A DNA stretch of 64,000 nt, taken from Candidatus Parcubacteria bacterium (GTDB lineage: Bacteria > Patescibacteriota > Minisyncoccia > UBA6257 > HR35). This document shows positions 666 to 63,880 of the stretch, one piece after another (the stretch's first letter is position 1; each line of letters begins with the position of its first letter). A model generated the notes under the pieces. It was given only the letters and a program-made list of their open reading frames with translations, had not been told where the DNA came from and did not search any database. The stretch covers positions 79,915 to 143,914 of the forward strand of contig BPJI01000001.1 of the NCBI GenBank assembly GCA_026004535.1, written 5' to 3'. A program made the translations under genes and the position numbers.

Positions 666-2499
666 TTTTACTTATCTTTCTTAATTCCTGAGCTATATTT
701 TTAATCTCATTTAATATTTTAACTGATTCATCCTCATTGGCAAATTTCAATTTTTCATTCAATTGCTTAATATTTTTCTTCAAAAACAATATTTTTAAAT
801 TTTTAACTGTTCTCTCCAGTTCTTTTTTCAAATTTAGATTGGTTGTTAAGTAAAAATTTTTTGTCATTTCTAGATAATTAAATTCTTCTTCGTCGAGTTT
901 ATTTTCTAAAACCTTTAAAAATAATTGTTTAAATTTTTCTGATAGATATAAGGTAAAATCTTTAATATCATGCTGAACAAACAGAACTGACGCTGAACTA
1001 TCTGAATTATTTTTAGACGCAGAACTACACTGAACTGACTCAGAACTGTCGGGACTTTTCTGTGAGTTCTGTGTTAGTTCAGTAAGTTCTGCGGTAGTAC
1101 TTTTTTGTAAGTTCTGTGTGAGTTCTGTATAATTCTGCTTATTTAACAAAGTATAAATTAAAGAAATTGCTCTTAAAGAAAATTTTTCTTCTAATGTCTT
1201 CTCTTCGCTTAAATTACTAATTTTTTCTCGAGGCAAATTGATTTCTCTACGTAAACTATCAGGTAAATTTTTTAGTTCTTTTTCTAAAAATGATTTGTCA
1301 ATGTTTAATTTAACTGAAAGTTGATTTAAATAATTATCAATTTCAATGGCTGAAAGATTTTTTATTTGAGGCAAAAATATGGCTAAAATTTTTCCTTTGT
1401 CTTGATAATTATTTAAAAGATAATTTAATAAATAATCTTCAAACTTTTCTTCACTAATGTCTGCGTTAGTCCGCGTGTAGTCTGTATTAGTCTGGATTTT
1501 GCCAAAATATTCTCCCAAATCCTTTCCTGGATATATCAATCTAAATGTTTTAAAACCTAATTGCTGAGCCATTAAATTAGCTCTTAAACTCGCCTTAAAA
1601 CCAGCTTCATCATTATCAAAAGCTAAAATTAAATTGGATGCATATTTTTTTAGTTTTCTTAAATGATCTTCAGTTAAAGCCGAACCAGAAACAGCAACTA
1701 TATTTTTTAAATTGTTCTGCCAAGCTAAAAGAAAATCAAATTGGCCTTCGACTAAGATTATTTTTTTATCAACTAAGATATATTCCTTAGCAAAATAAAG
1801 ACCATAAAGAAATTGAGATTTCTTAAAAATTAATGTTTCAGGTGTATTTAGGTATTTTGGTCCAGGGAAATTGTCAGGAAAAATTCTACCAGTAAAACCA
1901 ACTAATTTGCCCTTTTCATCTCTTAAAGGGAAAATTATTCTTGATTGAAAACGATCAAAATTTTGGTTATCAATTAGGCCTGCTTTTTTAATTAATTCAT
2001 AACTGTAGCCTTGGGAATATAAATAATCTCTTAATAAAGTATGACCTGGCGAAAAACCAATTTCAAAAAAATTAATTATTTCTTTTTTCAATCCTCGTTT
2101 TAATAAATAATCTAGAACCTCTTCATTTTTCTTTAATTCTTGGCGAAAGAACTTTAAAGCTGAATAATTAATTTCCAAAACTTCTTTTTCCTCCTTTAAA
2201 CTTTTAAACTTTTCTCCTTTTAAACTTCCAGTATCGATACCATATTCTTCTTTGATTTTTTCTAAAACTTGTGCGTAATTTAAATTTTCGATTTGCATTA
2301 AAAATTTAATTACATCACCGCCTACAGAACAACCAAAACATTTAAAAATTTGCATCTCGGGCGAAACATAAAAAGATGGTTTTGTTTCTTTATGAAAAGG
2401 ACAAAGACCACTATAGTACTTACCAGCTCTTTTTAATTTGACATAACGACTGACAACCTCAACGATATCTAATCTGTTTTTAATTTCTTCAATGTTCAT
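658..2499 (-). CDS. dnaG: DNA primase DnaG, carrying an in-frame low-complexity insertion
   Basis: CHC2 zinc finger ([34 protein letters not shown]), Toprim region and synteny with rpoD. Residues ~450-510 are encoded by a repeat element (see the repeat at 963..1140). Confidence 0.85.
963..1140. repeat. ~160-bp palindromic MITE-like element (CAGAACTGA / TCAGTTCTG arms) lying in-frame inside dnaG
   Basis: Sequence gaattatttttagacgcagaactacactgaactgactcagaact...ttttctgtgagttctgtgttagttc closely matches 63881..64000 (gaattatttttaaatgcagaactatgctgagctgacgcagaact...ttttctgtaagttctgtgttggttc). The left and right halves are mutual reverse complements. Confidence 0.75.
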
Positions 2500-8280: not shown

Positions 8281-10085
8281 TGGCAAGAGTTTTAGGTATT
8301 GATTTAGGAACAACTAATTCAGTTGCAGCAATTGTTGCTGCTGGTGTTCCAAAAGTCATCGAGAACAGAGAAGGTTCAAGAATAACTCCTTCAGTTGTGG
8401 CTATGTCTAGATCTGGAGAAAGACTTGTTGGTATTTTAGCTAAAAGACAAGCAGTAGCTAATCCTAAAAACACAATTTTTTCCGTCAAAAGATTAATTGG
8501 AAGGAGATTTAATGACCCTGAGGTTCAAAAAGCTAAAACTATTTTGCCCTATGAGATTAGAGAAAGCGAAAATGGAGGCGTTGAGGTAAAAATGGCTGAT
8601 CGATGGTATAAACCCGAAGAAATCTCAGCGATGGTGCTTCAAAAAATCAAATTAGATGTTGAAGAAAAATTAGGCGAAGAAATAAAAGAAGCAGTTATTA
8701 CTTGCCCAGCTTATTTTGACGACTCTCAAAGAGCAGCAACTAAAGCAGCTGGAGAAATTGCTGGGTTTGAAGTTAAAAGATTGTTACCTGAACCAACGGC
8801 AGCTGCTTTAGCCTATGGCCTTGATAAAAATATCAACGCTAAAATTTTAGTTTATGATTTTGGTGGTGGAACTTTTGATATTTCAATCTTAGAAGTTGGC
8901 GAAGGTGTAATTGAAACCAAAGCTATTGGTGGTGATACATTTTTAGGTGGTGATGATTTTGATCAAAGAATTATTCAATTTTTAATTGACTGGTATAAAA
9001 AAGAAGAAGGCGTTGATTTGAGTAATGACATTTTAGCTTTACAAAGATTAAAAGAGGCAGCTGAAAGAGCTAAACAAGAACTTTCAACTTTATACGAAAC
9101 AGAAATTAATTTACCATTTATTACTTCAACTCCTGAAGGGCCAAAACATCTTTATTACAAATTAACTAGAAGCCAATTAGAAGATTTAACTCGAGATTTG
9201 GTTGAAAGATCAATTGAACTTACTAAACAAACATTAAATGAAGCCGGTCTTAAACCAAGTGATATTGATGATATTGTTTTGGTTGGTGGTCAAACAAGAA
9301 TGCCTTTGATTCAACAAAAAGTCAAAGAATTATTCGGCAAAGAACCAAGGAAAGATATTAATCCAGATGAAGTTGTTGCTATTGGTGCCGCTATTCAAGC
9401 TGGCATTATTCAAGGAGAAATAAGAGAAATTTTACTTTTAGATGTTGTGCCTTTAACTTTGAGCATTGAAACCTTGGGTGGTATTGCTCATCCAATGATT
9501 CCCAAAAACACTCCCATCCCCTATTCAAAAAAAGAAATCTTTACTACAGCCGAAGATAATCAAACCGTAGTTGAAATTCACGTTGTTCAAGGAGAAAGAC
9601 CCTTGGCCCAAGATAATAAAACCTTGGCCAGATTTTTACTTGAAGGCATTCCTCCAGCACCAAGAGGCGTGCCTCAAATTGAAGTAACTTTTGATGTTGA
9701 CCAAAATGGAATTTTAACCGTAACTGCCTTAGATAAAGCAACCCAAAAAAGTCAAACTGTTAAAATCACAAATTCAGTCAATATCTCTAAAGAAGAAATT
9801 GAAAAATTAAAAAAGGAAGCTGAAGAGTATGCTGCTCAAGATTTTCAAAAAAGAAAATTAGCTGAAACCAAAAACCAAGCAGACAATTTAATTTATCAAG
9901 CCAAAAAATTACTTCAAGAATATCAAGATAAAATTAATCAAGAAACGAAAAATCAAATTGAAGAAAAAATAAAAGAGCTCGAAAATTTAAAAAATACAAG
10001 CCAAAATTATGAAGAAATTGATGCTAAAATTAAAGAATTAAATCAATTGCTAGCCGAAATTGGCAAAACATTCTATCAACAATAA
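8280..10085 (+). CDS. dnaK: Chaperone DnaK (Hsp70)
   Basis: [17 protein letters not shown] and [11 protein letters not shown] motifs, and the full 601-aa Hsp70 architecture. Confidence 0.95.
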
Positions 10086-10588
10086 TGGATGATTATTATC
10101 AAATTTTAGGCGTGCCAGAAAATGCTGACGAAGAAACAATTAAAAAGGCTTTTCGAGAACTAGCCAAAAAATATCATCCTGACAGAGGTGGTGATGCTGA
10201 AAAATTTAAGAAAATTATTGAAGCTTACAGGGTTTTATCAGACAAAAAATTAAGAGCTGAATATGATCAAAGAAGAAAATGGCAAACAACATTTACTTTT
10301 GATTTTGAGGATATTGGTGATTATTTAAGAAGACAATTTTTTGGTGAAGACTTGTTTGAAGACTTATTTAGAAGCATTTTTACTCATTTCCAAGAACCAA
10401 GAACATATAGTCAGCAAGAAATAGTTTTGGAAATTAATCCCTTAGAAGGCTTAAAAGAAAAAACAATTGAGATTCCTTTTTATGATGGTAAAAGGAAAAT
10501 TTCGCTTAAAATTAATTTTAAATTGCCCAAAAATTTACCTGATAAAATTAAAAAATTAGTCGATGAATTAAAGAAAGAAATTAAATAA
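10085..10588 (+). CDS. J-domain co-chaperone (DnaJ-like, J domain only)
   Basis: DYYQILGV...[17 protein letters not shown]...EAYRVLSD J domain with HPD motif. No zinc-finger or C-terminal domains. Confidence 0.7.
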
Positions 10589-10848
10589 TGCCGAAAACAA
10601 GATCAGCAAAAAAAGCTTTAAGAAAAAGTCAAAAAAGATGGTTAATAAATGAACGCCGAAGAAGAAAAATTAAATTAGCAGTTAAAAATTTTCTTCAAGC
10701 AATCAAAGAAAAAAATAAAGAATTAGCACAAAAAAATCTAAGTTTAGTTTATAAAGAATTGGATAAAGCTGGCAAAACTTTTATGCATCAAAACAAAGTT
10801 GCCCGATTAAAATCAAAATATGCTTCAATGCTAAGCAAATTTAATTAG
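10588..10848 (+). CDS. rpsT: 30S ribosomal protein S20
   Basis: [29 protein letters not shown]...; basic 86-aa protein with the S20 N-terminal signature. Confidence 0.8.
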   Translation: MPKTRSAKKALRKSQKRWLINERRRRKIKLAVKNFLQAIKEKNKELAQKNLSLVYKELDKAGKTFMHQNKVARLKSKYASMLSKFN

Positions 10849-11337
10849 CCTCTCAGGTTTTCAGCTTCTTAGCTTCATAGCTTAAAAGATTATCATTTTC
10901 TAAGGGAAATTTTAATGAGATATGAATTCTTGAGATCTCCCCAAGCCTCTTAAATAATCAATTAAAACATCACTATCTATTAAAATTCTTCTGCCTCCAA
11001 TTTCTTCTAATTTTTCTAACATATGCTCAAGGAACTTTTATTACCAAAATCAGTCTTTAAAACACCAAATGCCTTTCTAATAAAGTAAGATTTATCTAAA
11101 ATTTTTCCTTTTTTAAGTAATTTAGTAACCATAAATTAATTATAACATAAATTAGCTTTCAGGTCTCATGATGATCAGCTTCTTAGCTTCTAAGCTTCTT
11201 AGTTTCTTAATTTGATTAATTTAAATAAAATATAAGATTTTACATACAAACAATATTCTAAATTTGCAGAATGTGAGAATGTTTGGTATTGCTGGAATTT
11301 TATTTTTAAATTTGGTGATTATTTTTATTTAATTTCC
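10849..11337. repeat. Noncoding region carrying 8-bp microsatellites (TAGCTTCT)n and a decayed vapBC-like (PIN toxin/antitoxin) remnant. This is the 3' flank of duplicated module copy 1.
   Basis: cagcttcttagcttcatagc at ~10861 and cagcttcttagcttctaagcttcttagtttc at ~11171. Minus-strand fragments read MLEKLEEIGGRRILIDSDVLIDYLRGLGRSQEFISH* (PIN N-terminus) and MVTKLLKKGKILDKSYFIRKAFGVLK... Related sequence recurs at 52010..52100. Confidence 0.6.
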
Positions 11338-11876
11338 GCGTAGGTCAGCGTGATAATATTAAATATTTGTGCTCTTAAGGCTTTATTTCTTGGTCTGATA
11401 AGGCACGATTATAGATTCGAACTTCATCGATGAAACCTTCATCCAAGTATCCAGGCGACCAGCATATCCTCCAATATAAAATTCCAATATATTTGAATGG
11501 AGTTTGCCTGCTTCCTGATTTTTAACTCTGCATTAAATAAATTTTCATTCCGCCGTATTTTTATCATATGTCCCACTAGTCAAATACCATTGATAACAGA
11601 TATACTACCAGATACACAATTTCGCTAGCTACATTAGTGGCATCATAGAATTAAATCTAAACGATTATCATCTCCAAGCAAACCGCAGTATGCCAACCTA
11701 TTTTGCAAATAAAATTGATGTCATACTTGAATCTGATTATACCAGACATAGTAAATGAGGAGTATTACGTTGAGCTACATCATTAAAGATGGGTTGATTG
11801 GATACTTACATAATCATCACTCCATCAAAACTTAAAGCTTTACCTACTTTACCATCAACACAAGTTGGTCCATTAA
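11338..11876 (-). pseudogene. Frameshifted remnant of a LamG (concanavalin-like) domain, formerly fused to the upstream pilin gene (copy 1)
   Basis: Minus-strand fragments include ...GFIDEVRIYNRALSDQEIKAL..., the canonical LamG C-terminal motif. No ORF of 60 aa or more remains. Homologous to 52741..52935. Confidence 0.55.
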
Positions 11877-12533
11877 CTAAGTTCCATTATTTCCATTTCC
11901 TGATAAATCTTTAGCTGTACAATCATCAAAACTCCAATAACCTACAAGTCCTTGAGCTTGGTCAATTAATCTTTTGTTTGTTCCTGCTGAAAATAGATGA
12001 GGGTAATTATCATTATCATTTTTTGAAGCTTGATTTCTAGAATCTTCTAATTGAGCATAGACAGCATAACTTCCTCCAGCAACAAACGCATAGTAATATG
12101 GAGGTCTATTGATTGGATCAATGAAAAGTCTAGAAAGATTAATGCTTGAAAATTGATTAAAAGGAATAGGAATCCAGCCAGTACCATCAATATTTGTTGG
12201 AGTTGCTGAGCATCTATATGACCAGCCTGAAGGAAGCTGTGGTAATTGACTTATCCATTGACCACAAGTTGATGAAGTATCAGGAAGAGAGATATAGACA
12301 ACATTTGAGGAAGCATATTGAAGTTCAGAAAAGGTGCCTTGAGTTTCAAAAAGAATAAGGTCAAATATTTTTTCAAGATTTTTAAGGTCTGAAGTTCTTT
12401 GACTATCTCTACCTCTTTTAAAGATATCTGCTGGCTTAATGACAACAATTAAGACAGTAGCTAAGATAGCTATTAGAGCTAAGACAACTAAGAGTTCAAC
12501 TAAAGTGAAGGATTTATTCATTTTTTTATTCAT
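11877..12533 (-). CDS. Type IV pilin-like protein (prepilin N-terminal cleavage/methylation domain) truncated at the start of its LamG domain; possibly still expressed as a pilin
   Basis: MNKKMNKSFTLVELLVVLALIAILATVLIV is a class III signal / prepilin motif (FTLVELLVV). The C-terminus ...LVGYWSFDDCTAKDLSGNGNNGT is the typical start of a LamG domain but is followed by a stop. A near-identical copy lies at 53412..53930. Confidence 0.55.
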   Translation of the reverse strand: MNKKMNKSFTLVELLVVLALIAILATVLIVVIKPADIFKRGRDSQRTSDLKNLEKIFDLILFETQGTFSELQYASSNVVYISLPDTSSTCGQWISQLPQLPSGWSYRCSATPTNIDGTGWIPIPFNQFSSINLSRLFIDPINRPPYYYAFVAGGSYAVYAQLEDSRNQASKNDNDNYPHLFSAGTNKRLIDQAQGLVGYWSFDDCTAKDLSGNGNNGT

Positions 12534-12579
12534 AATTCTAACTTCTGACTTCTAATTTTTATATTTTAATTATAACTCG

Positions 12580-13476
12580 TTAACTCTTTGATAATAAATA
12601 ATTTAATGAAATATCTTCGGGTATTTCTTTGATGTTAAGATAAAATTTTTTGAATTTCTTGTCTGTTTTAGCTAAGACTGAGATTAATAATTTTATTTCT
12701 TCTAAGGTTAGATTTTTTGATTTCTCTTTTAATTTTTGTAAATAGTAATCATTAGTTTTAATTTTGCCAATTTTTCCTTTTTTAATTAAATAAATTTTGA
12801 CCAAAGAATGAAAAAGAAGACTTAAAGCTCTTAAAGAATCAGCATTGTCTTTACTTTTATCTTCTAAAATAAATTTTTTAAAGTGGTGAATAAATAATGG
12901 CCAATTCCTTTCTAAGAAATAATCTTGAATCTTAAAAACATTAGTCTTAAAATGTAAAATTTGCTTTAAACTTTTTTGATCTCCTCCTAAAAGAGCTATT
13001 TTTTCTAAATCAGCTAATAATAAATCAATATTGTCTTGATAATTTTCTTTAAGCACTTTAATTATTTCTGGAGATAATTTTAAATTGTGTTCTTGAGCAT
13101 ATTGGGCAATGAAATTTTCTAAGCTTCTTTTGTCAGGCAATCTTAATTGAAAAACTTTAAATTTTAATTTATTTTTTCTTAATAAATCTAAAAATTCTGT
13201 TGGCTCATCAGGAAAAACAAAAATGAAATTTAAGTCAGAATTAGATTTAAGAAATTCAACTAAAATTTGGAGGTCATTTTTTTTAATCTTAGCTAAATTT
13301 TTGAGAACAATGTCATTTTTTTTGCCAAATAAAAATTGATTAGTAATTTTTTGTAATTCTAAAAAAAAATCATGAAAATTATTATTGTAAATTAATTGAC
13401 GAAAATTGGTACTTAATTCTTGAATTTTTCTTTCAATTAAGGATTGATTCTGACCAATAATGACATTGAGGCTCAT
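12580..13476 (-). CDS. DNA polymerase III delta subunit-like (HolA), tentative
   Basis: The ~300-aa size, its helical nature and its position near rpsT (the comEC-holA-rpsT synteny known from Firmicutes) support this. No sharp motif, so the call is low-moderate. Confidence 0.4.
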   Translation of the reverse strand: MSLNVIIGQNQSLIERKIQELSTNFRQLIYNNNFHDFFLELQKITNQFLFGKKNDIVLKNLAKIKKNDLQILVEFLKSNSDLNFIFVFPDEPTEFLDLLRKNKLKFKVFQLRLPDKRSLENFIAQYAQEHNLKLSPEIIKVLKENYQDNIDLLLADLEKIALLGGDQKSLKQILHFKTNVFKIQDYFLERNWPLFIHHFKKFILEDKSKDNADSLRALSLLFHSLVKIYLIKKGKIGKIKTNDYYLQKLKEKSKNLTLEEIKLLISVLAKTDKKFKKFYLNIKEIPEDISLNYLLSKS

Positions 13477-13479
13477 TAA

Positions 13480-13770
13480 TTATTTTATTGCTTCCTTTAG
13501 ATCCTTGGCTGGAGTAAAACGAGGAACTCTTTTACCCGGAACTTCAATTTTTTCTCCTGTTTTAGGATTAATAGCCGTTCTTGCTTTTCTTTCTCTAACT
13601 TTAAAAGTGCCCAAGCCAACGATTTTTACTTGGACTCCCTGTTTTAAATTATTAGTAATTTCTTGAACCAACCAGACTAAAACCTCATTTGCTTCTTTTT
13701 TTGTCATATTAAATTTATCGACCATTTTTTGAGCTAGATCTTTGACTTTAACAATGTTACCCTTTGCCAT
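13480..13770 (-). CDS. hup: Nucleoid protein HU/IHF family
   Basis: MTKKEANEVLVWLVQEITNNLKQGVQVKIVGLGTFKVRERKARTAINPKTGEKIEVPGKRVPRFTPAKDL is the HU fold with an arm motif. Confidence 0.85.
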   Translation of the reverse strand: MAKGNIVKVKDLAQKMVDKFNMTKKEANEVLVWLVQEITNNLKQGVQVKIVGLGTFKVRERKARTAINPKTGEKIEVPGKRVPRFTPAKDLKEAIK

Positions 13771-13841
13771 TTTAAAATAAAGTTTTAAAGACGACCTAAT
13801 TTTAATATCATTTTACAACAAAGATCCTAAAAATCCAAATA

Positions 13842-15350
13842 TCAACGAGCATATTCAACGGCTCTATTTTCCCTAATGACTACTACCTTGATTTCGCCCG
13901 GAAATTTGACCTCTTTTTCTATTTTTTTAGCTATTTCTTTAGCTAAATTATATATTTCCAAGTCACTTACGAGCTCGGCCTTGACAAAAACCCTTAATTC
14001 TCTACCTCCGGCAGTTGCAAAACATTTTTCCACACCCTCAAAAGAACTAGCTATTTTTTCTAATTGTTGTAATCTCTGAAGATAAATTTCAACAGTTTCC
14101 CTCCGAGCACCGGGACGAGCGCCGGATAGAATATCTGCAGCTAGAACTATGTAAGCATAAGGATTGGCAAAAGGATAAGTTTCATGATGAGATCTCATTC
14201 CTAAAATCACTTCCTCCTCAATGCCATATTTTTCCAAAATTCTAATACCTATTTCCAAATGACTTCCTTCAATATCGTGAGTAACCGCTTTACCAATATC
14301 ATGTAAGAAAGCTGCTTTTTTAGCAATATAAGGATCAAGTCCGAGTTCCTCGGCAATCATCTTGGCAATATAAGCCATCTCAATTGAATGCTGTAAAACA
14401 TTCTGCCCATAACTATATCTAAACTTCAATCTACCCATTAACAGAATAATCTCCTCAGGCAAATCAAAAAGACCAACTTCATAAGCAGCATTCCTGCCAG
14501 CTTCCTCAATCATTTTTTCGATTTCTTCTTTACTCTCGGCAACTTTTTCTTCAATTGTTACTGGGTTAATTCTCCCATCTTTCATTAGTTTTTCTAAAGC
14601 TAAACGAGCAATTTCTCTTTTGACTGGGTCAAAAGAAGATAAGACAACAACATCGGGCGTTTCATCAATAATAATTTCAACCCCCGTTAAGTTCTCAAAA
14701 TGCTTAATATTTCTCCCCTCCTTACCAATAATTCTTCCTTTCATCTCCTCGTTCGGTAAATTAACAACAGTTGTTGTGATCTCGTTTACAACTGAACGAG
14801 CATAACGAGGTAATGCCTCTAAAATTATTTTTTTAGCTTCTGCCTCAATTTTCTCCTTTTCCTGCTGTTTTAGCTTCATTAATCTCTCTATAATTTCTAC
14901 CTCATTCTCTTTTTCAATTTTCTGAAACAAAATTTTCAAAGCCTCTTCTTTAGTAAAACCACTGATTTTTTCTAGGCTTTTTTCTAAAAATTTTTCTTTT
15001 TCATTTAAAGCCTGAGTTCTTGCTTCTAGTTCTTTATTTTTTTCAATTAGATCTTTCTCTTTCTCAATCAAAGTCATTTCCTTTTCGTCTAAAATATTTT
15101 CTTTTTGACTAATTCTTTTTTCTTTTTCTAAAATATCTTCTAAAATTCTTTCTTTTTCTTTTTTAGCTTCTTCAATAATGATTAGAGATTTTTCTCTAGC
15201 TTCAGCCAAAATAGACTCGGCCTCTTTCCTTTTTAACTCAAGCTCTTCCTCAATTTCTTTTAGTTTGGCTCCCTCTTTTTTAATAATTAATATTTGTCTT
15301 AAAAAATAACCAATTAAAATACCAATTATAAAAACCAAAAAATTAATCAT
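13842..15350 (-). CDS. rny: Ribonuclease Y
   Basis: N-terminal TM, coiled coil, KH domain (GRIIGKEGRNIKHFENLTGVEIIID) and HD domain (HDIGK). Confidence 0.85.
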   Translation of the reverse strand: MINFLVFIIGILIGYFLRQILIIKKEGAKLKEIEEELELKRKEAESILAEAREKSLIIIEEAKKEKERILEDILEKEKRISQKENILDEKEMTLIEKEKDLIEKNKELEARTQALNEKEKFLEKSLEKISGFTKEEALKILFQKIEKENEVEIIERLMKLKQQEKEKIEAEAKKIILEALPRYARSVVNEITTTVVNLPNEEMKGRIIGKEGRNIKHFENLTGVEIIIDETPDVVVLSSFDPVKREIARLALEKLMKDGRINPVTIEEKVAESKEEIEKMIEEAGRNAAYEVGLFDLPEEIILLMGRLKFRYSYGQNVLQHSIEMAYIAKMIAEELGLDPYIAKKAAFLHDIGKAVTHDIEGSHLEIGIRILEKYGIEEEVILGMRSHHETYPFANPYAYIVLAADILSGARPGARRETVEIYLQRLQQLEKIASSFEGVEKCFATAGGRELRVFVKAELVSDLEIYNLAKEIAKKIEKEVKFPGEIKVVVIRENRAVEYAR

Positions 15351-18221: not shown

Positions 18222-18638
18222 ATAAAACGCTGACAGCTACAGAAAATCACTTCGTGACGCTGACAGCTGCGGGAATGTTTTAACTACACGGACGGTCTAC
18301 CGGATATAGTTACCCGGATAGCTTGCCAGATAATGTTTACCCAGATGATTACTGGGATAGATTACCCGGATAGCCACCTGGATTATTTTACCCGGATGAG
18401 TACAGGATAAAAAATATTTTATAAATCATCCGGTTTATATCTGGTTAAGTATATGCGGTAAAAATCCGGGTAGAAGTTGTTATCCGGTTTATATCCGGGC
18501 AAATTCATCCAGTATGCATCCGGATAATTAATAATACGATTCACATCCGGGTAGTATTATCCGGTGATAATCCAGGTAGAAAATATTTTCTGCGGCTGTC
18601 CGCGGTAATAATACTGTCTGCTGTCCGCGGGAACAAGA
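18222..18638. repeat. GC-rich palindromic array: ~9 direct copies of (T)TACCCGGATAG at ~13-bp phase, an AT-rich centre, then ~11 copies of the reverse-complement box ATCCGG(G)TA. Flanked by GC-rich boxes (GCTGACAGC x2 on the left, GCTGTCCGCGG x2 on the right).
   Basis: Read directly. Left boxes at ~18297, 18311, 18325, 18338, 18352, 18363, 18376, 18389 and 18402. Right boxes at ~18428, 18439, 18464, 18482, 18493, 18507, 18518, 18544, 18559 and 18570. GC content is far above the surrounding sequence. Confidence 0.85.
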
Positions 18639-28557: not shown

Positions 28558-28638
28558 GGTGGGGTGGCAGAATGGGATTGCACACGGCTCGAAACCGTGG
28601 GCCTTACGGCCATGTGGGTTCGAATCCCACCCCCACCG
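28558..28638 (+). tRNA. tRNA-Ser(CGA), type II with long variable arm, 81 nt
   Basis: GGTGGGG T GGCAGAATGGGATTGC A CACGG CTCGAAA CCGTG GGCCTTACGGCC ATG GTGGG TTCGAAT CCCAC CCCCACC G. Anticodon CGA. Variable stem GGCC/GGCC. Confidence 0.85.
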
Positions 28639-28776
28639 CACGCAAACAGTTAAAAATAAGTTTGATAAGTACAAAGCAAAGCAAACAGGTGGTAGGGTGA
28701 GAACCCACAGCAACCCAACAAGCTATAAGCACAAACCAGAAACAAGAGAGTAAAGATGTTTTTGAAATTACTAAAT

Positions 28777-28836
28777 ATGTGGTTTACCGTTTTCGAATCT
28801 CATCCCCACTGCACGCAAACAGGTAAAAACAAGCTT
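28777..28836 (+). pseudogene. Decayed duplicate of the tRNA-Ser 3' end plus ~25 nt of its downstream flank
   Basis: atgtggtttaccgttttcgaatctcatccccactgcacgcaaacaggtaaaaacaagctt aligns with 28612..28664 (catgtgggttcgaatcccacccccaccgcacgcaaacagttaaaaataagttt). Confidence 0.5.
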
Positions 28837-28837
28837 T

Positions 28838-29665
28838 TTAATTCTCATATAGCAAAGGAGTGGCCAAACAGATTGAAGAATAAGTACCAATAAGAATACC
28901 TATTTGAATTGATAAAAGAAATGCTCTTAAATCAGGAATTAAAATTGACAAAGGCAAAATTGCTAAAACAGCCGTTAAAGAGGTAAAAATTGATCTCCTT
29001 AAGGTTTGCTGAATGCTCAAATTAAAAACCTCAATTGTTTTTTTGCCTGTTTTTAAAATATTTTCTCTCAAACGATCAAAAACAACGATTGTATCATGAA
29101 CTGAAAAACCAGCAACAATAAGTAAAGCGGTAATAAATTTAATGTCTAAATCAAAATTAAAGAATTTTGACAGCAAAACATAAAAGCCGGTTGTCGCCAT
29201 AACGTCGTGAAATAAAGTTATGACCACAATAAAACCTAAAAGAAATGGTGAAAATTGATTTTTCAATTGATAAAAAGCAAAGGCAACATAAAGACCAATT
29301 GCTAATAAAACTAGAATAATCATCAACATTGCTTTTTGTCTTAATTCTGAACTCAAACTACTACTAATTGATTCAAATCTTATTCTTTGACTTTGATTAT
29401 CTTGTTTTTGAATTTCTTGCCAGAGAAGATTTAAATTTTCTTGACTTTTAATCAAATAACCATCTTGAGTTTGATAATATACTGCTTTAAGCTTTAAATT
29501 ATTAATAATTGAGGGTACATTAGCTTTGGTTTTAACTTCTAAAATTTGACCACCAATCAAATCAATGCCTAAATTAGGGTTAAAAAAATAAAAACTCAGA
29601 CCACCAAACAGAACCAAAATCAAGCTTAAAAAATAAAAATAATATCTATATTTAATGAAATCCAT
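28838..29665 (-). CDS. secF: Protein translocase subunit SecF
   Basis: N-terminal TM, periplasmic domain and six-TM C-terminal bundle. Follows secD immediately. Confidence 0.85.
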   Translation of the reverse strand: MDFIKYRYYFYFLSLILVLFGGLSFYFFNPNLGIDLIGGQILEVKTKANVPSIINNLKLKAVYYQTQDGYLIKSQENLNLLWQEIQKQDNQSQRIRFESISSSLSSELRQKAMLMIILVLLAIGLYVAFAFYQLKNQFSPFLLGFIVVITLFHDVMATTGFYVLLSKFFNFDLDIKFITALLIVAGFSVHDTIVVFDRLRENILKTGKKTIEVFNLSIQQTLRRSIFTSLTAVLAILPLSILIPDLRAFLLSIQIGILIGTYSSICLATPLLYEN

Positions 29666-37756: not shown

Positions 37757-37799
37757 TTTTGCTAGTTTTACAGCTTCACAGCTTCCAAGCTTCAAAAAG

Positions 37800-42764: not shown

Positions 42765-43740
42765 TGTTGTTGGTACTATTTGTTGTCTTAAAGATGTTGT
42801 TGTTTGAGTTGAGGTTTGAATTTTAATTTGATTTGTTCTATCTGTAGTTGTTGGTAATCTTACGATTTCGTACGTCGTAAATTTGTTTATTTCTCTTTTT
42901 TCTTCTGTGTAAGTGATAATATTTTCTTTCTTTTCTTCTTTATAGGTTATTGTTTGAGTTTGAGTTTGTGGTTGAATATTTAATTGAAGTTTTGAGATTG
43001 AAGTTGAAGTTGGTTGAGAAAAAATTTGACCTAAATATGGGGGTGTTGATTCTTTGTAACCTAAGGCTATAAGTCTTATTTCTAAAGTTTGTTTTTGTTT
43101 TTCAAGATTAGCTAATTTTGTTTGTTTTTGTTTAGCTACTTCTGTTTTAAGACATTCTTTCTTTTGTTTAATTGACCAATTATTTTCTGTACATTGAAGA
43201 AATCTATCTTTAATTACTGAAAGAGCACAAGAATAATTATTAGTTGAACAATCATAAACAAAGATAGTATCTTGAAGTATTTGCTCCCAGTCTTGTTTTT
43301 TAGACTTATAATCATCATAATATTCGCCGGTTTTATCACCATTGTATTTTATTATAGCCAGCGCTCTTCATTCTCATTAATTCCATCTTTAAATAATTTC
43401 AAAGCTGCAGCATATAATGAATCTTCTAGATTCCAAGGATTTTTATTTTTAAGTTCTGGATATAGATATCCAAGTTGTAGGTTGAAATTGAGTGTAACCA
43501 ATACCAAAATCTGGAGAAAAAGGAACTTTGTTGATATCTAAACCTAAATTTTTAGTTATTTTTTCTAAAGCTGAGTATTGCTCTGTACACCAACTTGTTC
43601 GAGCTGTTGTAGAATAGCATTTTGTACCCTCAATAGGCCTGGGTCTACTTCTAAGTACATCACAATACTCTACACATCTCTGAATATTCTTATCTTTATC
43701 GCCCAAATTGTTTCCCATAATTTCTAGTAAATCCACTCTC
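42765..43740 (-). pseudogene. Frameshifted coding remnant, including a lytic transglycosylase (SLT) domain, upstream of and probably once continuous with the LTD protein
   Basis: ORF 43449..43736 encodes ...FGIGYTQFQPTTW (compare the SLT motif GLMQFMPSTW). The next frame continues ...SLYAAALKLFKDG. 42765..43270 is protein-like (Thr/Gln-rich, Cys pairs) but interrupted by stops. Confidence 0.45.
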
Positions 43741-51466: not shown

Positions 51467-51470
51467 TTGG

Positions 51471-51544
51471 TCGGGATGGCGGGACTCGAACCCGCAGCCT
51501 CCAGCACCCCATGCTGGTGCGCTAACCAATTGCGCTACATCCCG
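51471..51544 (-). tRNA. tRNA-Pro(GGG), 74 nt
   Basis: Minus strand reads CGGGATG TA GCGC AATTGGTTA GCGC A CCAGC ATGGGGT GCTGG AGGCT GCGGG TTCGAGT CCCGC CATCCCG A. Anticodon GGG. Confidence 0.85.
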
Positions 51545-51756: not shown

Positions 51757-51990
51757 TTAAAATTTGAATTGGGGTAAATTTTTTAAAATCTCAAGAGATT
51801 GCTTGAAAGAACTAAGATAGGGCTGAACTAATTGGTAACTATAATAAATAATCAAAACTATAACCAACCAATAAAGAATTCTAAAAAAGAAAGAAATTTT
51901 TCGAGCTCGGTTAATGCTTTTCAAAATTCTCAAAGATTCTTTGGAAACTTCCAAATTTTCTTTTAACAACTGCTTTATTTCCTCATCCAT
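51757..51990 (-). CDS. Small TM protein, unknown function
   Basis: 77 aa with a central TM helix (ISFFFRILYWLVIVLIIYYSYQL). Weak support. Confidence 0.3.
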   Translation of the reverse strand: MDEEIKQLLKENLEVSKESLRILKSINRARKISFFFRILYWLVIVLIIYYSYQLVQPYLSSFKQSLEILKNLPQFKF

Positions 51991-52740
51991 TTAAAAATTA
52001 TAACACAATTTAGCTTTCAGGTTTCAGGTTTTTAGCTTCTTAGCTTCAGAGCTTCAAATATTATTATCTTCTAAGGAAAATTTTAATGAGATACGATCTC
52101 GTTAAATTTCTCAATTTTTGAATTTCTTAAGAAATTGAGAAATTAAAATTGATGGGTTTTAAAATAGATTTTTGAGTCATCAAACGACAGTCTAAGATGC
52201 CATAGCGTTTTTTATATAGTCAAATCTTCTCATTTCTACTAACTTAGTGCGGTCGCATCAAGATAGTAGAAGTGGAAATATTCGGACGTACGACGTCCCG
52301 ATATTTATTTTAACACTTGGGTAAGATAATTGTGAAGTCGTTAATTTGTGAACTTGTGAATTTATTAATGAATGAATTTAGTTAATTTTGTATTTTAGCA
52401 AACCTAGGTAAGTTAAAATACGAAAATCTTTAATTTTATCTTTATTAAATGAATGAATTTAAGGTTATCTAATCTCCAAAGTCGTGTTTAGCACGCCATG
52501 GCGTTTTATAGAGGATTATCTAAAATTAGGTTTCGGGTTATTAGCTTCTTAGCTTCTTCATTTTTTAAATTCTACAATCCAAGGTGACGTTTAAAATGCT
52601 ATAGCGTTTTATAGGTAACCTTCTAAAATTAGCTTTTAGGTTTATAGTTTCGAATATTTTTAAAATTTTAAAGCTGAGAAGCTAAGAAGCTGAAAGCTAA
52701 GAAGCTGAAAGCTAAGAAGCTTTTGAATTATTTTGTAGCT
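51991..52740. repeat. Complex repeat region: 8-bp microsatellites (TTCTTAGC / TTTCAGC units), a vapC-like remnant, and three ~150-bp degenerate units sharing GCCATAGCGTTTTATAG. This is the 3' flank of duplicated module copy 2.
   Basis: gctttcaggtttcaggtttttagcttcttagcttcagagcttc at ~52020..52062; a remnant reading ...EIVSH* at ~52065..52100; gccatagcgtttt-type boxes at ~52190, 52492 and 52588; and gctaagaagctgaaa x3 at 52684..52735. Confidence 0.7.
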
Positions 52741-53930
52741 TCATATAAGAGCTTTAATTTCTTGGTCTGATAAGGCACGATTATAGATTCGGACTTCGTC
52801 GATAATACCCTTATAGAATATCCAACAGTTAGCAATTCTGGCTGCAATATACAAATCATTATCCGAAACTTCGTTATTGGTTTGTCCTGTTTGAGTATAG
52901 CTTAAGACCATCCTTATATAAAAACTTCGTACCAAGAGATTTTTTCCAATGTAAATGCCACTAGAATACCATTGGAATTTATATCAGGATATACGGAGGA
53001 TACGAAGAAATAAGGGTTGTACATTATTGGCGTTATTAAAGAATCTTCAAAGGCGTGATGATCCATATATGCCAACCTATATCCTAGACCTGTATTATAT
53101 GCTAGAATAGGATTCACTGTCTTACTTCTGTTGGGTATTCTATCCACACAAATGAAATCATTACTTCGCTACATTTATAGATGGGTTATATAGAATACTT
53201 TCACATAATCATCAACCCCATCAAAACTTAAAGCTTTGCCTACTTTACCATCAACACAGTTAGGCCATTATAAGTGTTCCATTATTTCCATATCCTGATA
53301 ATCTTTAGCTGTACAATCATCAAAACTCCAATAACCTACAAGTCCTTGAGCTTGATCAATTGAAGTCTTTTATTTGTTCCTGCTGCATAAAGATGAGGTA
53401 ATTATCATCCATCATTTTTGAGCTGTGAGACTGAGGATTGCTTCTAATTGAGCTAGTAAGTCATAACTTCCTCCAGCAACAAATGCATAGTAATATGGAG
53501 GTCTATTGATTGGATCAATGAAAAGTCTAGAAAGATTAATGCTTGAAAATTGATTAAAAGGAATAGGAATCCAGCCAGTACCATCAATATTTGTTGGAGT
53601 TGCTGAGCATCTATATGACCAGCCTGAAGGAAGCTGTGGTAATTGACTTATCCATTGACCACAAGTTGATGAAGTATCAGGAAGAGAGATATAGACAACA
53701 TTTGATGAAGCATATTGAAGTTCAGAAAAGGTGCCTTGAGTTTCAAAAAGAATAAGGTCAAATATTTTTTCAAGATTTTTAAGGTCTGAAGTTCTTTGAT
53801 TATCTCTACCTCTTTTAAAGATATCTGCTGGCTTAATGACAACAATTAAGACAGTAGCTAAGATAGCTATTAGAGCTAAGACAACTAAAAGTTCAACTAA
53901 AGTGAAGGATTTATTCATTTTTTTATTCAT
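52741..53930 (-). pseudogene. Type IV pilin-LamG fusion gene, copy 2, more heavily decayed
   Basis: 53412..53930 encodes the same prepilin N-terminus as 11877..12533 (identical over ~150 aa, then diverging). 52741..52935 encodes the LamG C-terminus (IIDEVRIYNRALSDQEIKALI). The middle is broken into 77-aa and 64-aa fragments with indels relative to copy 1. Confidence 0.6.
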
Positions 53931-53971
53931 AATTCTAACTTCTCATCTCTAATTTCCACCTCCAATTTTTG

Positions 53972-54297
53972 TGGAGGCGGTGGGACTCGAACCCACATCA
54001 GAAGAAAAAGGTGGAAAGAGGCTCTCCTGGCACAGTCAGTTTTCTAATTCCTCTTAAAGAAGATAAACTGACAAACTTCTCTAAGAGTAGGCTCAATAAT
54101 TTCACTTATAACCCTTGAGCCAAGAATTATAAGCTATCGAGGATACTTTAAGCCTCTAAGAATTCCCTCGAAAAATTCTTAGAAGCTGCCTTTACGAAAG
54201 AGCAAAGGCTGGAACTCTGTTGGCACTTATTGGCTGTAGGTTGCCAACCTGCCAGCTCCTCTTTCTCTTTTTCTTCTTCAACCTCCTTCTCGCCCCC
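53972..54297 (-). ncRNA. ssrA: tmRNA (SsrA), ~326 nt
   Basis: Minus-strand 5' GGGGGCG... pairs with 3' ...CGCCUCCA (one G.U) in a tRNA-like acceptor. T arm GUGGG UUCGAGU CCCAC. An internal reading frame GCC AAC AGA GUU CCA GCC UUU GCU CUU UCG UAA gives the tag ANRVPAFALS*. GC-rich. Confidence 0.8.
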
Positions 54298-54321
54298 GTT
54301 TAATAATATTATACCACAAAA

Positions 54322-63866: not shown

Positions 63867-63880
63867 TATTTTTTAATTTT

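What the first reader, a model, noticed from the sequence alone, without database searches (positions are those of the whole stretch)
10849..12540. ~2-kb module (type IV pilin-LamG fusion gene + 8-bp microsatellites + vapBC-like remnant) duplicated as direct repeats 41 kb apart, both copies decaying; copy 2 abuts ssrA
11877..12533 and 53412..53930 encode the same prepilin-type N-terminus (MNKKMNKSFTLVELLVVLALIAILATVLIV...). Each is followed by the frameshifted remains of a LamG domain (…IDEVRIYNRALSDQEIKAL at 11338..11470 and at 52741..52800). Each is then followed by (TAGCTTCT)n-type microsatellites and by a fragment of a PIN-domain toxin (ILIDSDVLIDYLRG… at ~10930; …EIVSH* at ~52070). Copy 2 carries extra indels, and its 5' end sits 42 bp from the 3' end of tmRNA, a classic island-integration site. 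The interval between the copies is core housekeeping DNA. Long direct repeats like these can drive deletion or amplification of the 41-kb segment. The pilin-LamG architecture is typical of adhesive or DNA-uptake pili. Parallel decay of both copies suggests recent duplication followed by relaxation of selection, or phase-variable inactivation through the adjacent microsatellites.
Basis: seen in the sequence. Interest (0 to 1): 0.65.

Follow-up and report, generated by a model that had tools for sequence, protein, structure and literature searches.

The report
Two decayed lectin-tipped pilin gene copies
These are two of at least five scattered copies of a pilus gene with a sugar-binding tip in a tiny hot-spring bacterium; copying between the copies keeps their front halves almost identical, while the binding domains and the neighbouring toxin-antitoxin genes have decayed, which makes this a real but fairly ordinary recombining surface-adhesin gene family.

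Summary
The repeat is real. 11764-12558 matches 53160-53955 at 93% over 810 nt, and the first 493 nt, starting 25 nt before the ATG, are 99% identical. Both genes encode an intact type IV pilin module followed by a wrecked LamG lectin domain. None of the lesions is shared between the copies.

It is not a recent 2-kb duplication. The window comes from the Patescibacteria MAG KatS3mg096 (PacBio HiFi, 31.6x). That MAG has at least five paralogs with this N-terminus, and only one is intact (394 aa). Both loci already hold a pilin gene in related genomes: holA-pilin-TA-rpsT, and pilB-pilin or ssrA-pilin. The pilin modules group by genome, not by locus: c1-c2 97%, against 73-78% to positional orthologs. 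That is concerted evolution by gene conversion.

The 25 nt shared upstream of both copies is the native 3' flank of ssrA, so the ssrA-linked type was copied into the holA-rpsT locus.

One relative has ssrA directly followed by orf77, so copy 2 is an indel at the ssrA 3' flank. There is no integrase and no att duplication.

The "microsatellites" are imperfect arrays of 8-mers. At copy 2 they form hairpin arms. The vapBC remnant is confirmed by homology.

The finding is of moderate interest.

The parts
12534..12558 (-). Copy 1: 25-nt 5' flank shared with copy 2 (AAATTAGAAGTCAGAAGTTAGAATT). It is homologous to the native 3' flank of ssrA.
   Evidence: Homology between the copies starts here. It matches the ssrA flank at 88% over 25 nt. 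The same flank follows ssrA in L066 (no pilin there) and in L002.
11877..12533 (-). Copy 1 ORF, 218 aa (locus tag KatS3mg096_085). It has an intact class III signal peptide, pilin module and linker, and ends at a TAG inside the first LamG strand.
   Evidence: (N_methyl E 3.6e-7).
11375..11951 (-). Copy 1 LamG-domain remnant, with at least 7 frameshifts and 2 in-frame stops. It ends ...IDEVRIYNRALSDQEIKP*.
   Evidence: (Laminin_G_3 E 2.9e-8 on joined frames). The core has only weak similarity to 94 intact cores.
11177..11209 (-). Copy 1: array of four imperfect AGAAGCTN 8-mers just upstream of a TGTTATAAT extended -10-like box (11139-11147) and the vapB start.
   Evidence: The 23 nt around the box and ATG are identical in L025.
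10912..11132 (-). Copy 1 vapBC remnant. vapB has one frameshift near its 3' end. vapC (PIN) keeps about 16 N-terminal residues (ILIDSDVLIDYLRG) joined to its last codons (...ISH*).
   Evidence: Homologous to L070 at 77% over 121 nt. Compared with intact vapBC in L025 and with the PIN genes of L016 and L021, which match Pfam PIN at E 4.9e-14 and 4.8e-8. The remnant itself gets no Pfam hit.
10853..10939 (-). Copy 1: terminal 87-nt block shared with copy 2 (84%), covering the PIN 3' end and an 8-mer array. Homology ends at the rpsT stop codon (10846-10848, + strand).
   Evidence: D6.
53969..54297 (-). tmRNA (ssrA), directly upstream of copy 2 on the same strand. No promoter-like site lies between it and the pilin ATG.
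53931..53955 (-). Copy 2: 25-nt 5' flank. This is the native ssrA 3' flank and is shared with copy 1.
53412..53930 (-). Copy 2 ORF, 172 aa (KatS3mg096_126). The pilin module is intact up to GGSY, after which the frame is lost.
52741..53470 (-). Copy 2: decayed linker and LamG remnant. From GLVGYW onward there are at least 4 frameshifts and 2 stops, with further lesions upstream. It ends ...IDEVRIYNRALSDQEIKALI*.
52667..52732 (-). Copy 2: inverted 8-mer array directly after the LamG stop codon. It pairs with the forward array at 52543-52557 to form a long hairpin, and is also an inverted repeat of 51993-52058.
   Evidence: I1: 66-nt arms, 73% complementary; z -4.35.
52284..52298 (.). Palindromic GC hairpin GGACGTCGTACGTCC. 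The same hairpin recurs downstream of the pilin gene in L016, L021, L023, L024, L035 and L061. It is probably a terminator.
52024..52153 (-). Copy 2: last remains of the TA cassette. It comprises an AT-rich palindrome (52105-52153) that recurs after toxin genes in L019, L030, L057 and L062, the PIN 3' end (...IVSH*), and an 8-mer array.
51757..52005 (-). TGTTATAAT box (51997-52005) and orf77, a 77-aa protein with a hydrophobic stretch. orf77 is the first gene after the module. In relative L066 it directly follows ssrA.

Best explanation
What the two regions are. They are two members of a dispersed family of at least five genes for a modular type IV pilin. Each gene encodes a class III signal peptide, a pilin stem, a linker and a C-terminal LamG/ConA-like lectin module, which is probably a tip adhesin. 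In this lineage each gene is typically followed by a hairpin, short-repeat arrays and a type II toxin-antitoxin (TA) pair. The organism is KatS3mg096, a small-genome Paceibacteria (Patescibacteria) from a 52 degree C hot spring.

What is shown.
- Both loci are old pilin sites, because related genomes hold a pilin gene at the same places.
- The LamG parts and the vapBC genes of both copies are long-dead pseudogene DNA, and their lesions are independent.
- The 5' 493 nt are 99% identical between the copies and carry no frameshift or stop.
- Pilin modules group by genome rather than by locus.

What is inferred.
- RecA-type gene conversion between paralogs keeps overwriting the 5' half. Conversion tracts stop where homology runs out, in the hypervariable LamG core.
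- The shared 25-nt leader is the native ssrA 3' flank, so the ssrA-linked type was the source of the sequence now at the holA-rpsT locus.
- An older event, dated by roughly 84-89% identity, copied or homogenised the whole module, including its 3' array.
- The one intact paralog (_301, 394 aa) is presumably the working adhesin pilin.
- The truncated copies may still yield LamG-less pilin stems, but this was not tested.
For: Family size. The protein search and cluster look-up give KatS3mg096_085, _126, _171, _293 and _301 on one 556,583-bp contig. Only _301 is full length.

Mosaic identity. There are 7 differences in 493 nt (12558-12066), then 55 differences including 11 gaps in the next 266 nt, then an unalignable stretch, then 84-89% blocks.

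Lesions.
- No lesion position is shared.
- All lesions lie 3' of the clean block. The chance of this under uniform decay is 0.001 for copy 1 and 0.004 for copy 2.
- The cores barely resemble any of 94 intact cores: best scores 51-59, against 38-42 for the best shuffled controls.

Positional orthologs.
- L021: RNase Y-HU-holA-pilin-TA.
- L027 and L061: pilin-(TA)-rpsT-DnaJ-DnaK.
- L022 and L057: pilB-pilin.
- The flanking proteins are 70-90% identical to the window's in single full-length HSPs.

Grouping by genome.
- c1-c2 are 97% identical.
- c1 is 73-78% identical to L021, L027 and L061. c2 is 77% identical to L022.
- L022 and L061, from different loci in the same metagenome, are 93% identical.
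- L016 and L017, from the same MAG, are 100% identical over 720 nt and then unalignable.

Direction of copying. The ssrA 3' flank is conserved in L066, where no pilin follows it, and in L002. c1 shares its last 25 nt. Positional orthologs of c1 have a different leader, TGTTATAAT...ATGTCCAAT.

Fold. The AlphaFold2 model of _301 has pLDDT 92 and shows a long N-terminal helix, a small sheet and a jelly roll. The jelly roll matches lectin or carbohydrate-binding domains: AbnA domain 4 and the tetanus toxin Hc fragment.

Assembly quality. 31.6x HiFi coverage assembled with metaFlye, and the rest of the window has intact ORFs.
Against: - The DNA of the other three paralogs could not be retrieved, so conversion tracts and donors cannot be mapped.
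- That L022 and L061 belong to one genome is likely but not proven.
- Classical conversion cannot by itself carry 25 nt of heterologous ssrA flank, or the 3' array, into the holA-rpsT locus. At least one illegitimate or whole-module replacement event is needed, and its mechanism is unknown.
- Selection on a truncated pilin could add to the protection of the 5' half. Only 4 differences lie in the clean coding block, too few to test this.
- No reads were examined, so population heterogeneity at these loci is unknown.
Confidence: 0.7

Rival explanations
1. A single recent duplicative transfer of the whole ~2-kb module from the ssrA locus to holA-rpsT, followed by relaxed selection and parallel decay.
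For: Both ends of copy 1 match the ends of copy 2. This includes 25 nt of ssrA flank at the 5' end and the array with the PIN 3' end at the 3' end. Gene order is the same in both copies.
Against: Identity ranges from 99% to unalignable within one module. The LamG cores are not homologous at the DNA level. No lesion is shared. Relatives already have a pilin with a TA pair at holA-rpsT. At least 5 copies share the same N-terminus. An older whole-module event is compatible with the data and is included in the best explanation, but a recent one is not.
Confidence: 0.1
2. Consensus artefact. The LamG regions are hypervariable in the population, and the metaFlye consensus of mixed reads produced garbled, frameshifted sequence. 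The real cells carry intact genes.
For: Lesions are confined to the variable part. Family members are also disrupted in other assemblies: about 14 of 68 metagenome loci that do not run off their contig, plus L019, L020, L021, L049 and L061. No read data could be examined.
Against: Coverage is 31.6x HiFi with a read N50 of 10.5 kb, so reads span the modules. A blend of intact variants should still look LamG-like piece by piece, but the cores score barely above shuffled controls. The non-variable linker and handle of copy 2, and the vapBC genes, are also broken. Some relatives carry clean single nonsense mutations (TGG to TGA in L019, a TAA in L061), which are ordinary mutations. Flanking genes in the same contigs are intact.
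Confidence: 0.08
3. The truncated copies are working genes. After losing the lectin module they encode LamG-less pilin stems, for example pilus body subunits. Copy 2 would be expressed by read-through from ssrA. Selection, and not only conversion, keeps them intact.
For: Both ORFs keep the complete signal peptide and pilin fold elements: helix 11-63 and strands up to about residue 161 in the model of the intact paralog. There is no lesion in 470-654 nt of coding sequence. Copy 2 lies 38-40 nt behind ssrA on the same strand.
Against: 99% identity between old paralogs still requires homogenisation. There are no expression data. Most members in other genomes are full length, and the short ones checked are broken genes rather than natural short forms. 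The C-terminal tails are out-of-frame junk.
Confidence: 0.2
4. A programmed adhesin-variation system, like pilE/pilS or MgPar. The constant pilin stem and conserved 'handles' would let LamG cassettes be swapped among copies and between co-resident species. The broken copies would be the silent reservoir or OFF states.
For: The architecture is constant, then variable, then constant. In KatS3mg093 two intact paralogs are 100% identical for 720 nt and then carry unrelated cores. The ~300-nt linker and handle is 78-97% identical between KatS3mg096 and KatS3mg095, with third codon positions at 82-95%, while the pilin module is at 46-64%. Short-read contigs of relatives often break at the handle.
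Against: In this genome the non-expressed copies have ruined cores, so they cannot donate working cassettes. Unlike pilS, they keep the 5' constant part and the start codon. No recombinase, G4-type initiator or inversion site was found in the window. No variation among reads or strains has been shown.
Confidence: 0.15

Closest known systems
Modular type IV pilins with a ConA-like lectin module (Streptococcus sanguinis PilC; PMC9934059)
   Same: A class III signal peptide and pilin moiety with a concanavalin A-like/LamG jelly roll grafted on the C-terminus. A glycan-binding adhesin role at the pilus tip is predicted.
   Different: No detectable sequence kinship was tested or claimed, and PilC is not among the top 50 Foldseek hits. 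PilC has an extra Ig-like module and is a single gene inside the pil locus. Here the gene is multi-copy, dispersed, partly pseudogenised and next to stable-RNA genes and TA pairs.
Neisseria pilE/pilS pilin antigenic variation by gene conversion (own knowledge)
   Same: Several pilin copies in one small genome, with non-reciprocal recombination between them and conserved segments that guide recombination around variable parts.
   Different: pilS copies lack the promoter and the 5' constant region and hold usable variable cassettes. Here the copies keep the 5' part and start codon, and it is the variable part that is destroyed. What is homogenised is the constant half.
Mycoplasma genitalium MgPa/MgPar adhesin repeats and Helicobacter pylori babA/babB gene conversion (own knowledge)
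   Same: Adhesin paralogs or partial copies scattered in a reduced genome. Recombination between them gives mosaic genes and concerted evolution of conserved ends.
   Different: Those systems have experimentally shown exchange of functional variable segments. Here only homogenisation of the constant part and decay of the variable part are shown.
R64 shufflon (PilV tip adhesin with a constant N-terminus and alternative C-termini; own knowledge)
   Same: A constant pilin N-terminal part combined with alternative C-terminal receptor-binding parts.
   Different: The shufflon uses the Rci site-specific recombinase and sfx repeats within one locus. No recombinase and no clustered invertible segments are present here.
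Genomic islands integrated at the ssrA or tRNA 3' end (own knowledge)
   Same: Copy 2 lies directly 3' of ssrA, and a relative lacks it at that site. TA genes accompany the pilin. tRNA fragments are duplicated nearby.
   Different: There is no integrase, no duplicated ssrA 3' end and no other cargo. The ssrA-pilin junction is conserved in a distant genome.
tRNA-mRNA co-transcription units such as E. coli thrU-tyrU-glyT-thrT-tufB (own knowledge)
   Same: A protein gene placed directly behind stable-RNA genes on the same strand without a promoter of its own. This holds for copy 2, L002, L008, L065 and L069-L075.
   Different: Co-transcription is not shown here.

Membership tests
Type IV pilin (prepilin-type N-terminal cleavage/methylation) | Class III signal peptide: short basic leader, small residue at -1, Phe at +1, Glu at +5, then a hydrophobic helix | tested here: met
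   MNKKMNKS|FTLVELLVVLALIAILATVLIV. Pfam N_methyl E 3.6e-7 and 2.2e-7, above the curated cut-off. TIGR02532 E 0.0015, above the cut-off.
Type IV pilin | Pilin fold: long N-terminal helix packed on a beta-sheet | tested here: met
   AlphaFold2 model of the intact paralog P0123 (pLDDT 92): helix 11-63 and strands 78-161. c1 and c2 are nearly identical to it over residues 1-157.
Modular pilin with ConA-like/LamG lectin module | An intact LamG/ConA-like jelly roll in the same reading frame as the pilin | tested here: not met
   Met by paralog P0123 and by most relatives (PF13385). In c1 and c2 the domain is broken by at least 7 and at least 4 frameshifts plus stops. They are pseudogenes of this family, not working members.
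Modular pilin with ConA-like/LamG lectin module | Carbohydrate binding and location at the pilus tip | not testable with these tools
   Only fold resemblance to carbohydrate-binding domains is available.
VapBC type II toxin-antitoxin | PIN-domain toxin gene preceded by a small antitoxin gene | tested here: inconclusive
   The c1 and c2 remnants get no Pfam hit. c1 keeps ILIDSDVLIDYLRG and a vapB-like ORF with one frameshift. It is homologous to L070 (77% over 121 nt) and lies in the same position as intact vapBC in L016, L021 and L025 (PIN E 4.9e-14 and 4.8e-8). It is a remnant, not a working pair.
ssrA-targeting integrative island | Integrase gene at the island end next to ssrA | tested here: not met
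   There is no ORF longer than 77 aa between 51990 and 53412 apart from the pilin itself. The neighbours are pilB and orf77.
ssrA-targeting integrative island | Direct repeat of the ssrA 3' end at the far boundary (attL/attR) | tested here: not met
   The 24-nt ssrA 3' end occurs once with up to 3 mismatches. BLASTN with word size 7 finds only tRNA T-arm similarity and the 25-nt flank at c1.
ssrA-targeting integrative island | Presence/absence polymorphism at the site among relatives | tested here: met
   L066 has ssrA, then about 100 nt, then orf77, tRNA-Pro and TIGR00375, with no pilin module. L002 has ssrA followed by pilin.
Simple-sequence contingency locus (phase variation) | A long perfect repeat tract inside the ORF or between promoter elements, with unit number varying among cells | tested here: not met
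   The arrays have 3-6 imperfect units and lie 3' of the pilin gene. At copy 2 they form hairpin arms. Variation in unit number cannot be tested without reads.
pilE/pilS-type silent-cassette variation | Silent copies lack the promoter and 5' constant region and carry usable variable segments | tested here: not met
   c1 and c2 keep the start codon and constant region, and their variable cores are degraded.
Diversity-generating retroelement target | Reverse transcriptase and a template/variable repeat pair with adenine-specific differences | tested here: not met
   The window has no RT gene. The only RVT_3 hit is RNase H at 60817-61254. Differences between the copies are indels and mixed substitutions.
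Multigene family under concerted evolution (gene conversion) | Paralogs within a genome are more alike than positional orthologs between genomes, with mosaic tract structure | tested here: met
   Within genomes, identity is 97% (c1-c2), 100% (L016-L017) and 93% (L022-L061). Between c1 or c2 and their positional orthologs it is 73-78%. The mosaic blocks are shown.

The most novel reading that the evidence does not exclude
In these ultrasmall hot-spring Paceibacteria, the lectin tip of the type IV pilus would be a swappable cassette, and that tip is the likely host-recognition organ of an episymbiont. A constant pilin stem and a ~120-300-nt 'handle', conserved at the DNA level, would let LamG cores be exchanged by homologous recombination among dispersed copies. 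Exchange would also occur between co-resident species, perhaps through the cell's own DNA-uptake pilus. Stable-RNA genes (ssrA, tRNAs) would serve as expression sites or as homology anchors. The broken copies in this window would be spent or OFF cassettes of such a system.
Probability: 0.15. Interest if true: 0.7.

Novelty: new member of a known kind. Interest (0 to 1): 0.38.

Why it matters
Type IV pili are the one surface machine that cultivated Patescibacteria are known to need for finding and holding their hosts (PMC9894109 and PMC11623550, titles and abstracts seen).

This window shows that a lectin-tipped pilin in one such lineage is a multi-copy, recombining and fast-decaying family. 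Its stem is homogenised within genomes, its lectin cores differ between copies, and part of the gene has moved between species in the same spring. This suggests where host-range variation might be encoded.

There is also a practical point for annotation. Near-identical repeats in a reduced genome need not be recent duplications, and short-read assemblies tend to break at these genes.

For this window itself the outcome is modest: two pseudogenes and their remains.

Tried and rejected
- Generic sequencing error. Rejected: coverage is 31.6x HiFi, ORFs elsewhere in the window are clean, and flanking genes are intact in relatives.
- Alternative genetic code. Rejected: the first stops are TAG (c1) and TGA (c2), several frames are involved, and the rest of the window reads well with table 11.
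- DGR, shufflon, integrase island. None of the defining parts is present.
- Known RNA families in the two modules. Rfam at E up to 1 gives only the tmRNA, the tRNAs and chance hits.
- Sigma-70 promoter and terminator scan. The counts equal chance and it was not informative.
- DNA of the three other paralogs. Exact-protein look-ups failed, and the genome is not in the genome-contig collection.
- A close intact relative of either LamG core. None was found among 94 cores.
- A test of whether vapBC always accompanies the pilin. It does not. A TA pair or its remains follows the pilin in L016, L019, L020, L021, L025, L061 and L070, but not in L017 or L027.
- My guess that 42764-44288 is a broken lytic transglycosylase got no Pfam support.
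- PilC of S. sanguinis is not among the top 50 fold matches.
Full report
1. Observation

The repeat exists. BLASTN of 9500-14000 against 50500-55500 gives these matches:
- 11764-12558 vs 53160-53955: 93.2% over 810 nt.
- 11366-11453 vs 52732-52824: 84%.
- 10853-10922 vs 52024-52093: 90%, or 87 nt at 84%.

Both copies are on the minus strand, 41.4 kb apart. ORF 11877-12533 (218 aa) and ORF 53412-53930 (172 aa) start MNKKMNKSFTLVELLVV... and match Pfam N_methyl.

Downstream, three-frame translation shows LamG pieces in shifting frames. They end in IDEVRIYNRALSDQEIK. Joined pieces of copy 1 match Laminin_G_3 at E 2.9e-8.

The tmRNA is at 53969/53971-54297, 38-40 nt from the ATG. The 8-mer arrays are real and confined to the two modules: 10 hits against 0.32 expected.

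2. Source and family

The two ORFs, read from their second Met, are KatS3mg096_085 and _126 of a Candidatus Parcubacteria MAG.

The MAG has these properties (PMC9671151):
- Taxonomy: p__Patescibacteria; c__Paceibacteria; o__UBA6257; f__HR35.
- Size: 16 contigs, 844 kb.
- Sequencing: 31.6x PacBio HiFi, assembled with metaFlye 2.8.3.
- Origin: 52 degree C hot-spring sediment.

The same 556,583-bp contig encodes three more proteins with this N-terminus: _171 (304 aa, ends at ...GVDDYV), _293 (223 aa) and _301 (394 aa, intact). So there are at least five copies, and four of them are truncated.

An AlphaFold2 model of _301 (pLDDT 92) shows a pilin helix and sheet followed by a jelly roll. The jelly roll matches carbohydrate-binding domains. 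This is the architecture of modular pilins such as S. sanguinis PilC.

3. Anatomy, read on the minus strand

- Copy 1: holA stop, 22 nt, 25-nt shared leader, pilin ORF, LamG remnant, 8-mer array with a TGTTATAAT box, vapB (one frameshift), vapC (N-terminal 16 residues joined to its last codons), 8-mer array, then the rpsT stop codon (convergent gene).
- Copy 2: pilB, ssrA, the same 25-nt leader, pilin ORF, decayed linker and LamG, inverted 8-mer array, three ~45-nt TATAAAACGC... units, GGACGTCGTACGTCC hairpin, AT-rich palindrome, last codons of vapC, 8-mer array with a TGTTATAAT box, orf77, partial tRNA-Pro, tRNA-Pro.

The vapBC reading rests on homology. L016, L021 and L025 have a VapB-like ORF and a PIN gene at the same place; the L016 and L021 PIN genes match Pfam PIN at E 4.9e-14 and 4.8e-8. 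L070 shares 77% over 121 nt with the copy 1 remnant. Other relatives carry RelE/ParE-type pairs there.

4. Mosaic identity and independent decay

Along the alignment of the two copies:
- The 493 nt from -25 (12558-12066) carry 7 substitutions and no gap.
- The next 266 nt carry 55 differences, 11 of them gaps, and include short blocks at 95-98%.
- The LamG core is at chance level (31-58%).
- The last ~60-90 nt of LamG are at 84-89%.
- Most of the 3' flank is unalignable, except the final 87 nt at 84%.

A frameshift-aware alignment places at least 7 frameshifts and 2 stops in copy 1. In copy 2 it places at least 4 frameshifts and 2 stops, with more lesions upstream. None is at a shared position.

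All lesions lie 3' of the clean block. The probability of that under uniform decay is 0.001 for copy 1 and 0.004 for copy 2.

The cores are barely more similar to 94 intact cores than to shuffled ones. The 3' halves are therefore old wrecks, while the 5' halves look new.

5. Old loci, homogenised genes

Related contigs carry a family member at the same places:
- L021: RNase Y (84% aa), HU (91%), holA (70%), then pilin and TA genes.
- L027 and L061: pilin, with or without a TA pair, then rpsT (82-88%), DnaJ and DnaK (convergent).
- L022: PBP, then pilB (85%), then pilin 28 nt later. L057 also has pilB-pilin.
- L002: ssrA, then pilin.

Yet, for the DNA of residues 68-163, identity follows the genome and not the locus:
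- c1-c2: 97%.
- c1 to L027, L061 and L021: 78, 74 and 73%.
- c2 to L022: 77%.
- L022 to L061 (different loci, same metagenome): 93%.
- L016 to L017 (the two KatS3mg093 paralogs): 100% identical over 720 nt, then unrelated.

Paralogs that are more alike than positional orthologs are the signature of concerted evolution.

The direction of copying can be read from the leader. The sequence after the ssrA 3' end (hairpin, then ATTAGA..AGAAGTTAG) is conserved in c2, in L002, and in L066, where orf77 and not a pilin follows. c1 shares its last 25 nt. The positional orthologs of c1 have a different leader, TGTTATAAT-N12-ATGTCCAAT. So sequence of the ssrA-linked type was written into the holA-rpsT locus.

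Heterologous flank at both ends cannot be carried by simple conversion. An older whole-module replacement, dated by the 84-89% blocks, followed by recent 5' conversion, fits best. This step is inferred.

6. ssrA and tRNA context

L066 reads ssrA, about 100 nt, orf77, tRNA-Pro, TIGR00375, orf112, ClpB. Its flanks are 71-83% identical in protein to the window's. A pilin gene lies divergent on the other side of ssrA. L028 has the same divergent arrangement.

Relative to L066, copy 2 is therefore an insertion between ssrA and orf77, or else a deletion in L066. The island criteria fail: there is no integrase and no duplicated ssrA end.

Across 74 family loci with enough upstream sequence, 14 have a tRNA or tmRNA within 400 nt upstream, and at least 10 different RNA genes are involved. 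About 2-3 would be expected. The binomial P is 1e-6 or lower, and still 1e-3 or lower if only distinct contexts are counted. Some loci are orthologous to each other, so this is indicative only.

Eight of the 14 are co-directional at 6-134 nt. No promoter-like site separates ssrA from copy 2. Read-through expression, or stable-RNA genes acting as recombination anchors, are both possible. Neither is shown.

7. The '8-bp microsatellites'

The arrays are short and imperfect. They lie outside the pilin ORF.

At copy 2, the inverted array directly after the stop codon pairs with a forward array into a long hairpin: -52.7 kcal/mol, z -4.35. Arms 51993-52058 and 52667-52732 are 73% complementary.

Other 8-11-mer arrays with different units, often in inverted pairs, occur at 970-1137, 63876-63996, 37770-37794 and 18300-18578, and downstream of pilins in L016 and L019. 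They look like a lineage-wide class of hairpin-forming intergenic repeats, possibly terminators or mRNA stabilisers (inferred). They do not look like contingency tracts.

8. Artefact?

Generic error is excluded by coverage and by the clean ORFs around the modules. A garbled consensus of a hypervariable population cannot be excluded without reads.

It is unlikely, for these reasons:
- The cores are not LamG-like piece by piece.
- The conserved handle and the vapBC genes are also broken.
- Relatives from other projects show ordinary lesions, while their flanking genes are intact: TGG to TGA in L019, a TAA in L061, a core deletion in L020, and a TA insertion in L021.
- About 14 of 68 metagenome loci that do not run off their contig are disrupted, so the family decays often.

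9. Exchange between species

Between c1 and the KatS3mg095 gene (L018), the pilin module is 46-64% identical in DNA, with third positions of conserved codons at 35-63%. The ~300-nt linker and handle is 78-97% identical, with third positions at 82-95%.

With KatS3mg093, only the ~120-nt handle is 90-92% identical. The family is mosaic between co-resident species as well as within genomes.

10. Verdict

It is wrong on the central point: this is not a recent duplication but concerted evolution of old, dispersed paralogs, most of them dead.

The closest known things are modular lectin pilins, for what the gene is. For how it evolves, they are gene-converting adhesin or pilin families (pilE/pilS, MgPar, babA/babB). 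It fails the defining features of pilS-type cassettes, shufflons, DGR targets, ssrA islands and contingency loci.

It is a new member of known kinds in a lineage where this had not been described. A full-text search for LamG, pilin and Patescibacteria together found one paper, and it is off-topic.

Limits: there is no DNA for three of the paralogs, there are no reads, and there are no expression data.

Noticed in passing
window 51545-51756 (- strand): Between orf77 and tRNA-Pro(GGG) lies a 5' partial tRNA-Pro copy (51756-51688, 84% to the intact gene, with compensatory changes in the anticodon stem). It is followed by a 143-nt spacer of 56% GC in a 29% GC genome. The spacer folds into a multi-branched structure (-70.7 kcal/mol, z -5.6) and has no Rfam match. 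Relative L066 has orf77 directly followed by tRNA-Pro, so this is an insertion. It could be an unknown structured RNA or the scar of an element.
   Followed up: partly
window 28619-28668 and 28792-28841 (+ strand): The 3' end of tRNA-Ser(CGA) plus about 25 nt of its flank is repeated 173 nt downstream at 84%. This is an attL/attR-like scar with nothing recognisable between the repeats. L016 likewise has a partial tRNA-Thr copy about 160 nt from the intact gene, beside its pilin.
   Followed up: partly
window 970-1137 and 63876-63996: An ~115-nt element made of CAGAACT-type 8-11-mers in inverted arrays occurs twice (81% identical). One copy lies inside the dnaG-like ORF 658-2499 and is translated in frame. 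The other lies upstream of the yifB-like gene and folds with z -4.0.
   Followed up: partly
window 42764-44288 (- strand): A 1.5-kb stretch with no long ORF, in which plausible coding pieces continue in shifting frames. It may be a third pseudogene. My impression of a lytic-transglycosylase-like motif got no Pfam support.
   Followed up: partly
window 18300-18578: The intergenic gap between the GIY-YIG/UvrC-like ORF and the next gene is filled with CCGGAT-type repeats of 12-13 nt and three 45-nt units.
   Followed up: no
loci L002, L008, L016, L040, L044, L046, L054, L065, L067, L069, L071, L074, L075, L090; also L018, L028, L033, L055: Genes of this pilin family sit next to tRNA or tmRNA genes far more often than chance. 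14 of 74 have one within 400 nt upstream, involving at least 10 different RNA genes. Several others are followed by tRNAs.
   Followed up: partly
L066 3566-3927 (- strand); L028 1-87: ARAGORN reported no tmRNA in L066. BLASTN with the window's tmRNA finds a full-length homolog there (78.6% over 363 nt) and the 5' part of one at the start of L028.
   Followed up: yes
window 11818-12066 vs L018 10450-10720 (KatS3mg095) and L016 3290-3430 (KatS3mg093): The linker and first LamG strands (...GLVGYWSFDDCTAKDLSGN.NNGTLVNGPTCVDGKVGKALSFDGV) are nearly identical at synonymous sites between different species of the same spring, while the pilin module is saturated. This points to recent inter-species recombination.
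   Followed up: partly
window 52284-52298 and 52105-52153; L016 4078-4096; L019 6206-6251; L021 4958-4987; L030 5945-5986; L057 3326-3361; L061 ~1190; L062 2916-2956: Two small palindromes travel with the pilin-TA arrangement across genomes. One is a GC hairpin, GGACGTCGTACGTCC, after the pilin gene. The other is an AT-rich palindrome, AATTTCTCAATTTCTTAAGAAATTGAGAAATT, after the toxin gene.
   Followed up: partly
window 52174-52620 (- strand); L016 4668-4704: Three ~45-nt units of the form TATAAAACGCyATrGC..TAAAC.. lie in the copy 2 spacer. One similar unit (89% over 37 nt) follows the PIN gene of L016. Their nature is unknown.
   Followed up: no
L010-L014, L003, L006 (genome contigs): Short-read MAG contigs of relatives often start or end within this gene, around residues 184-205 at the boundary between the constant part and the LamG core. 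This is as expected if the constant part is repeated in those genomes.
   Followed up: no
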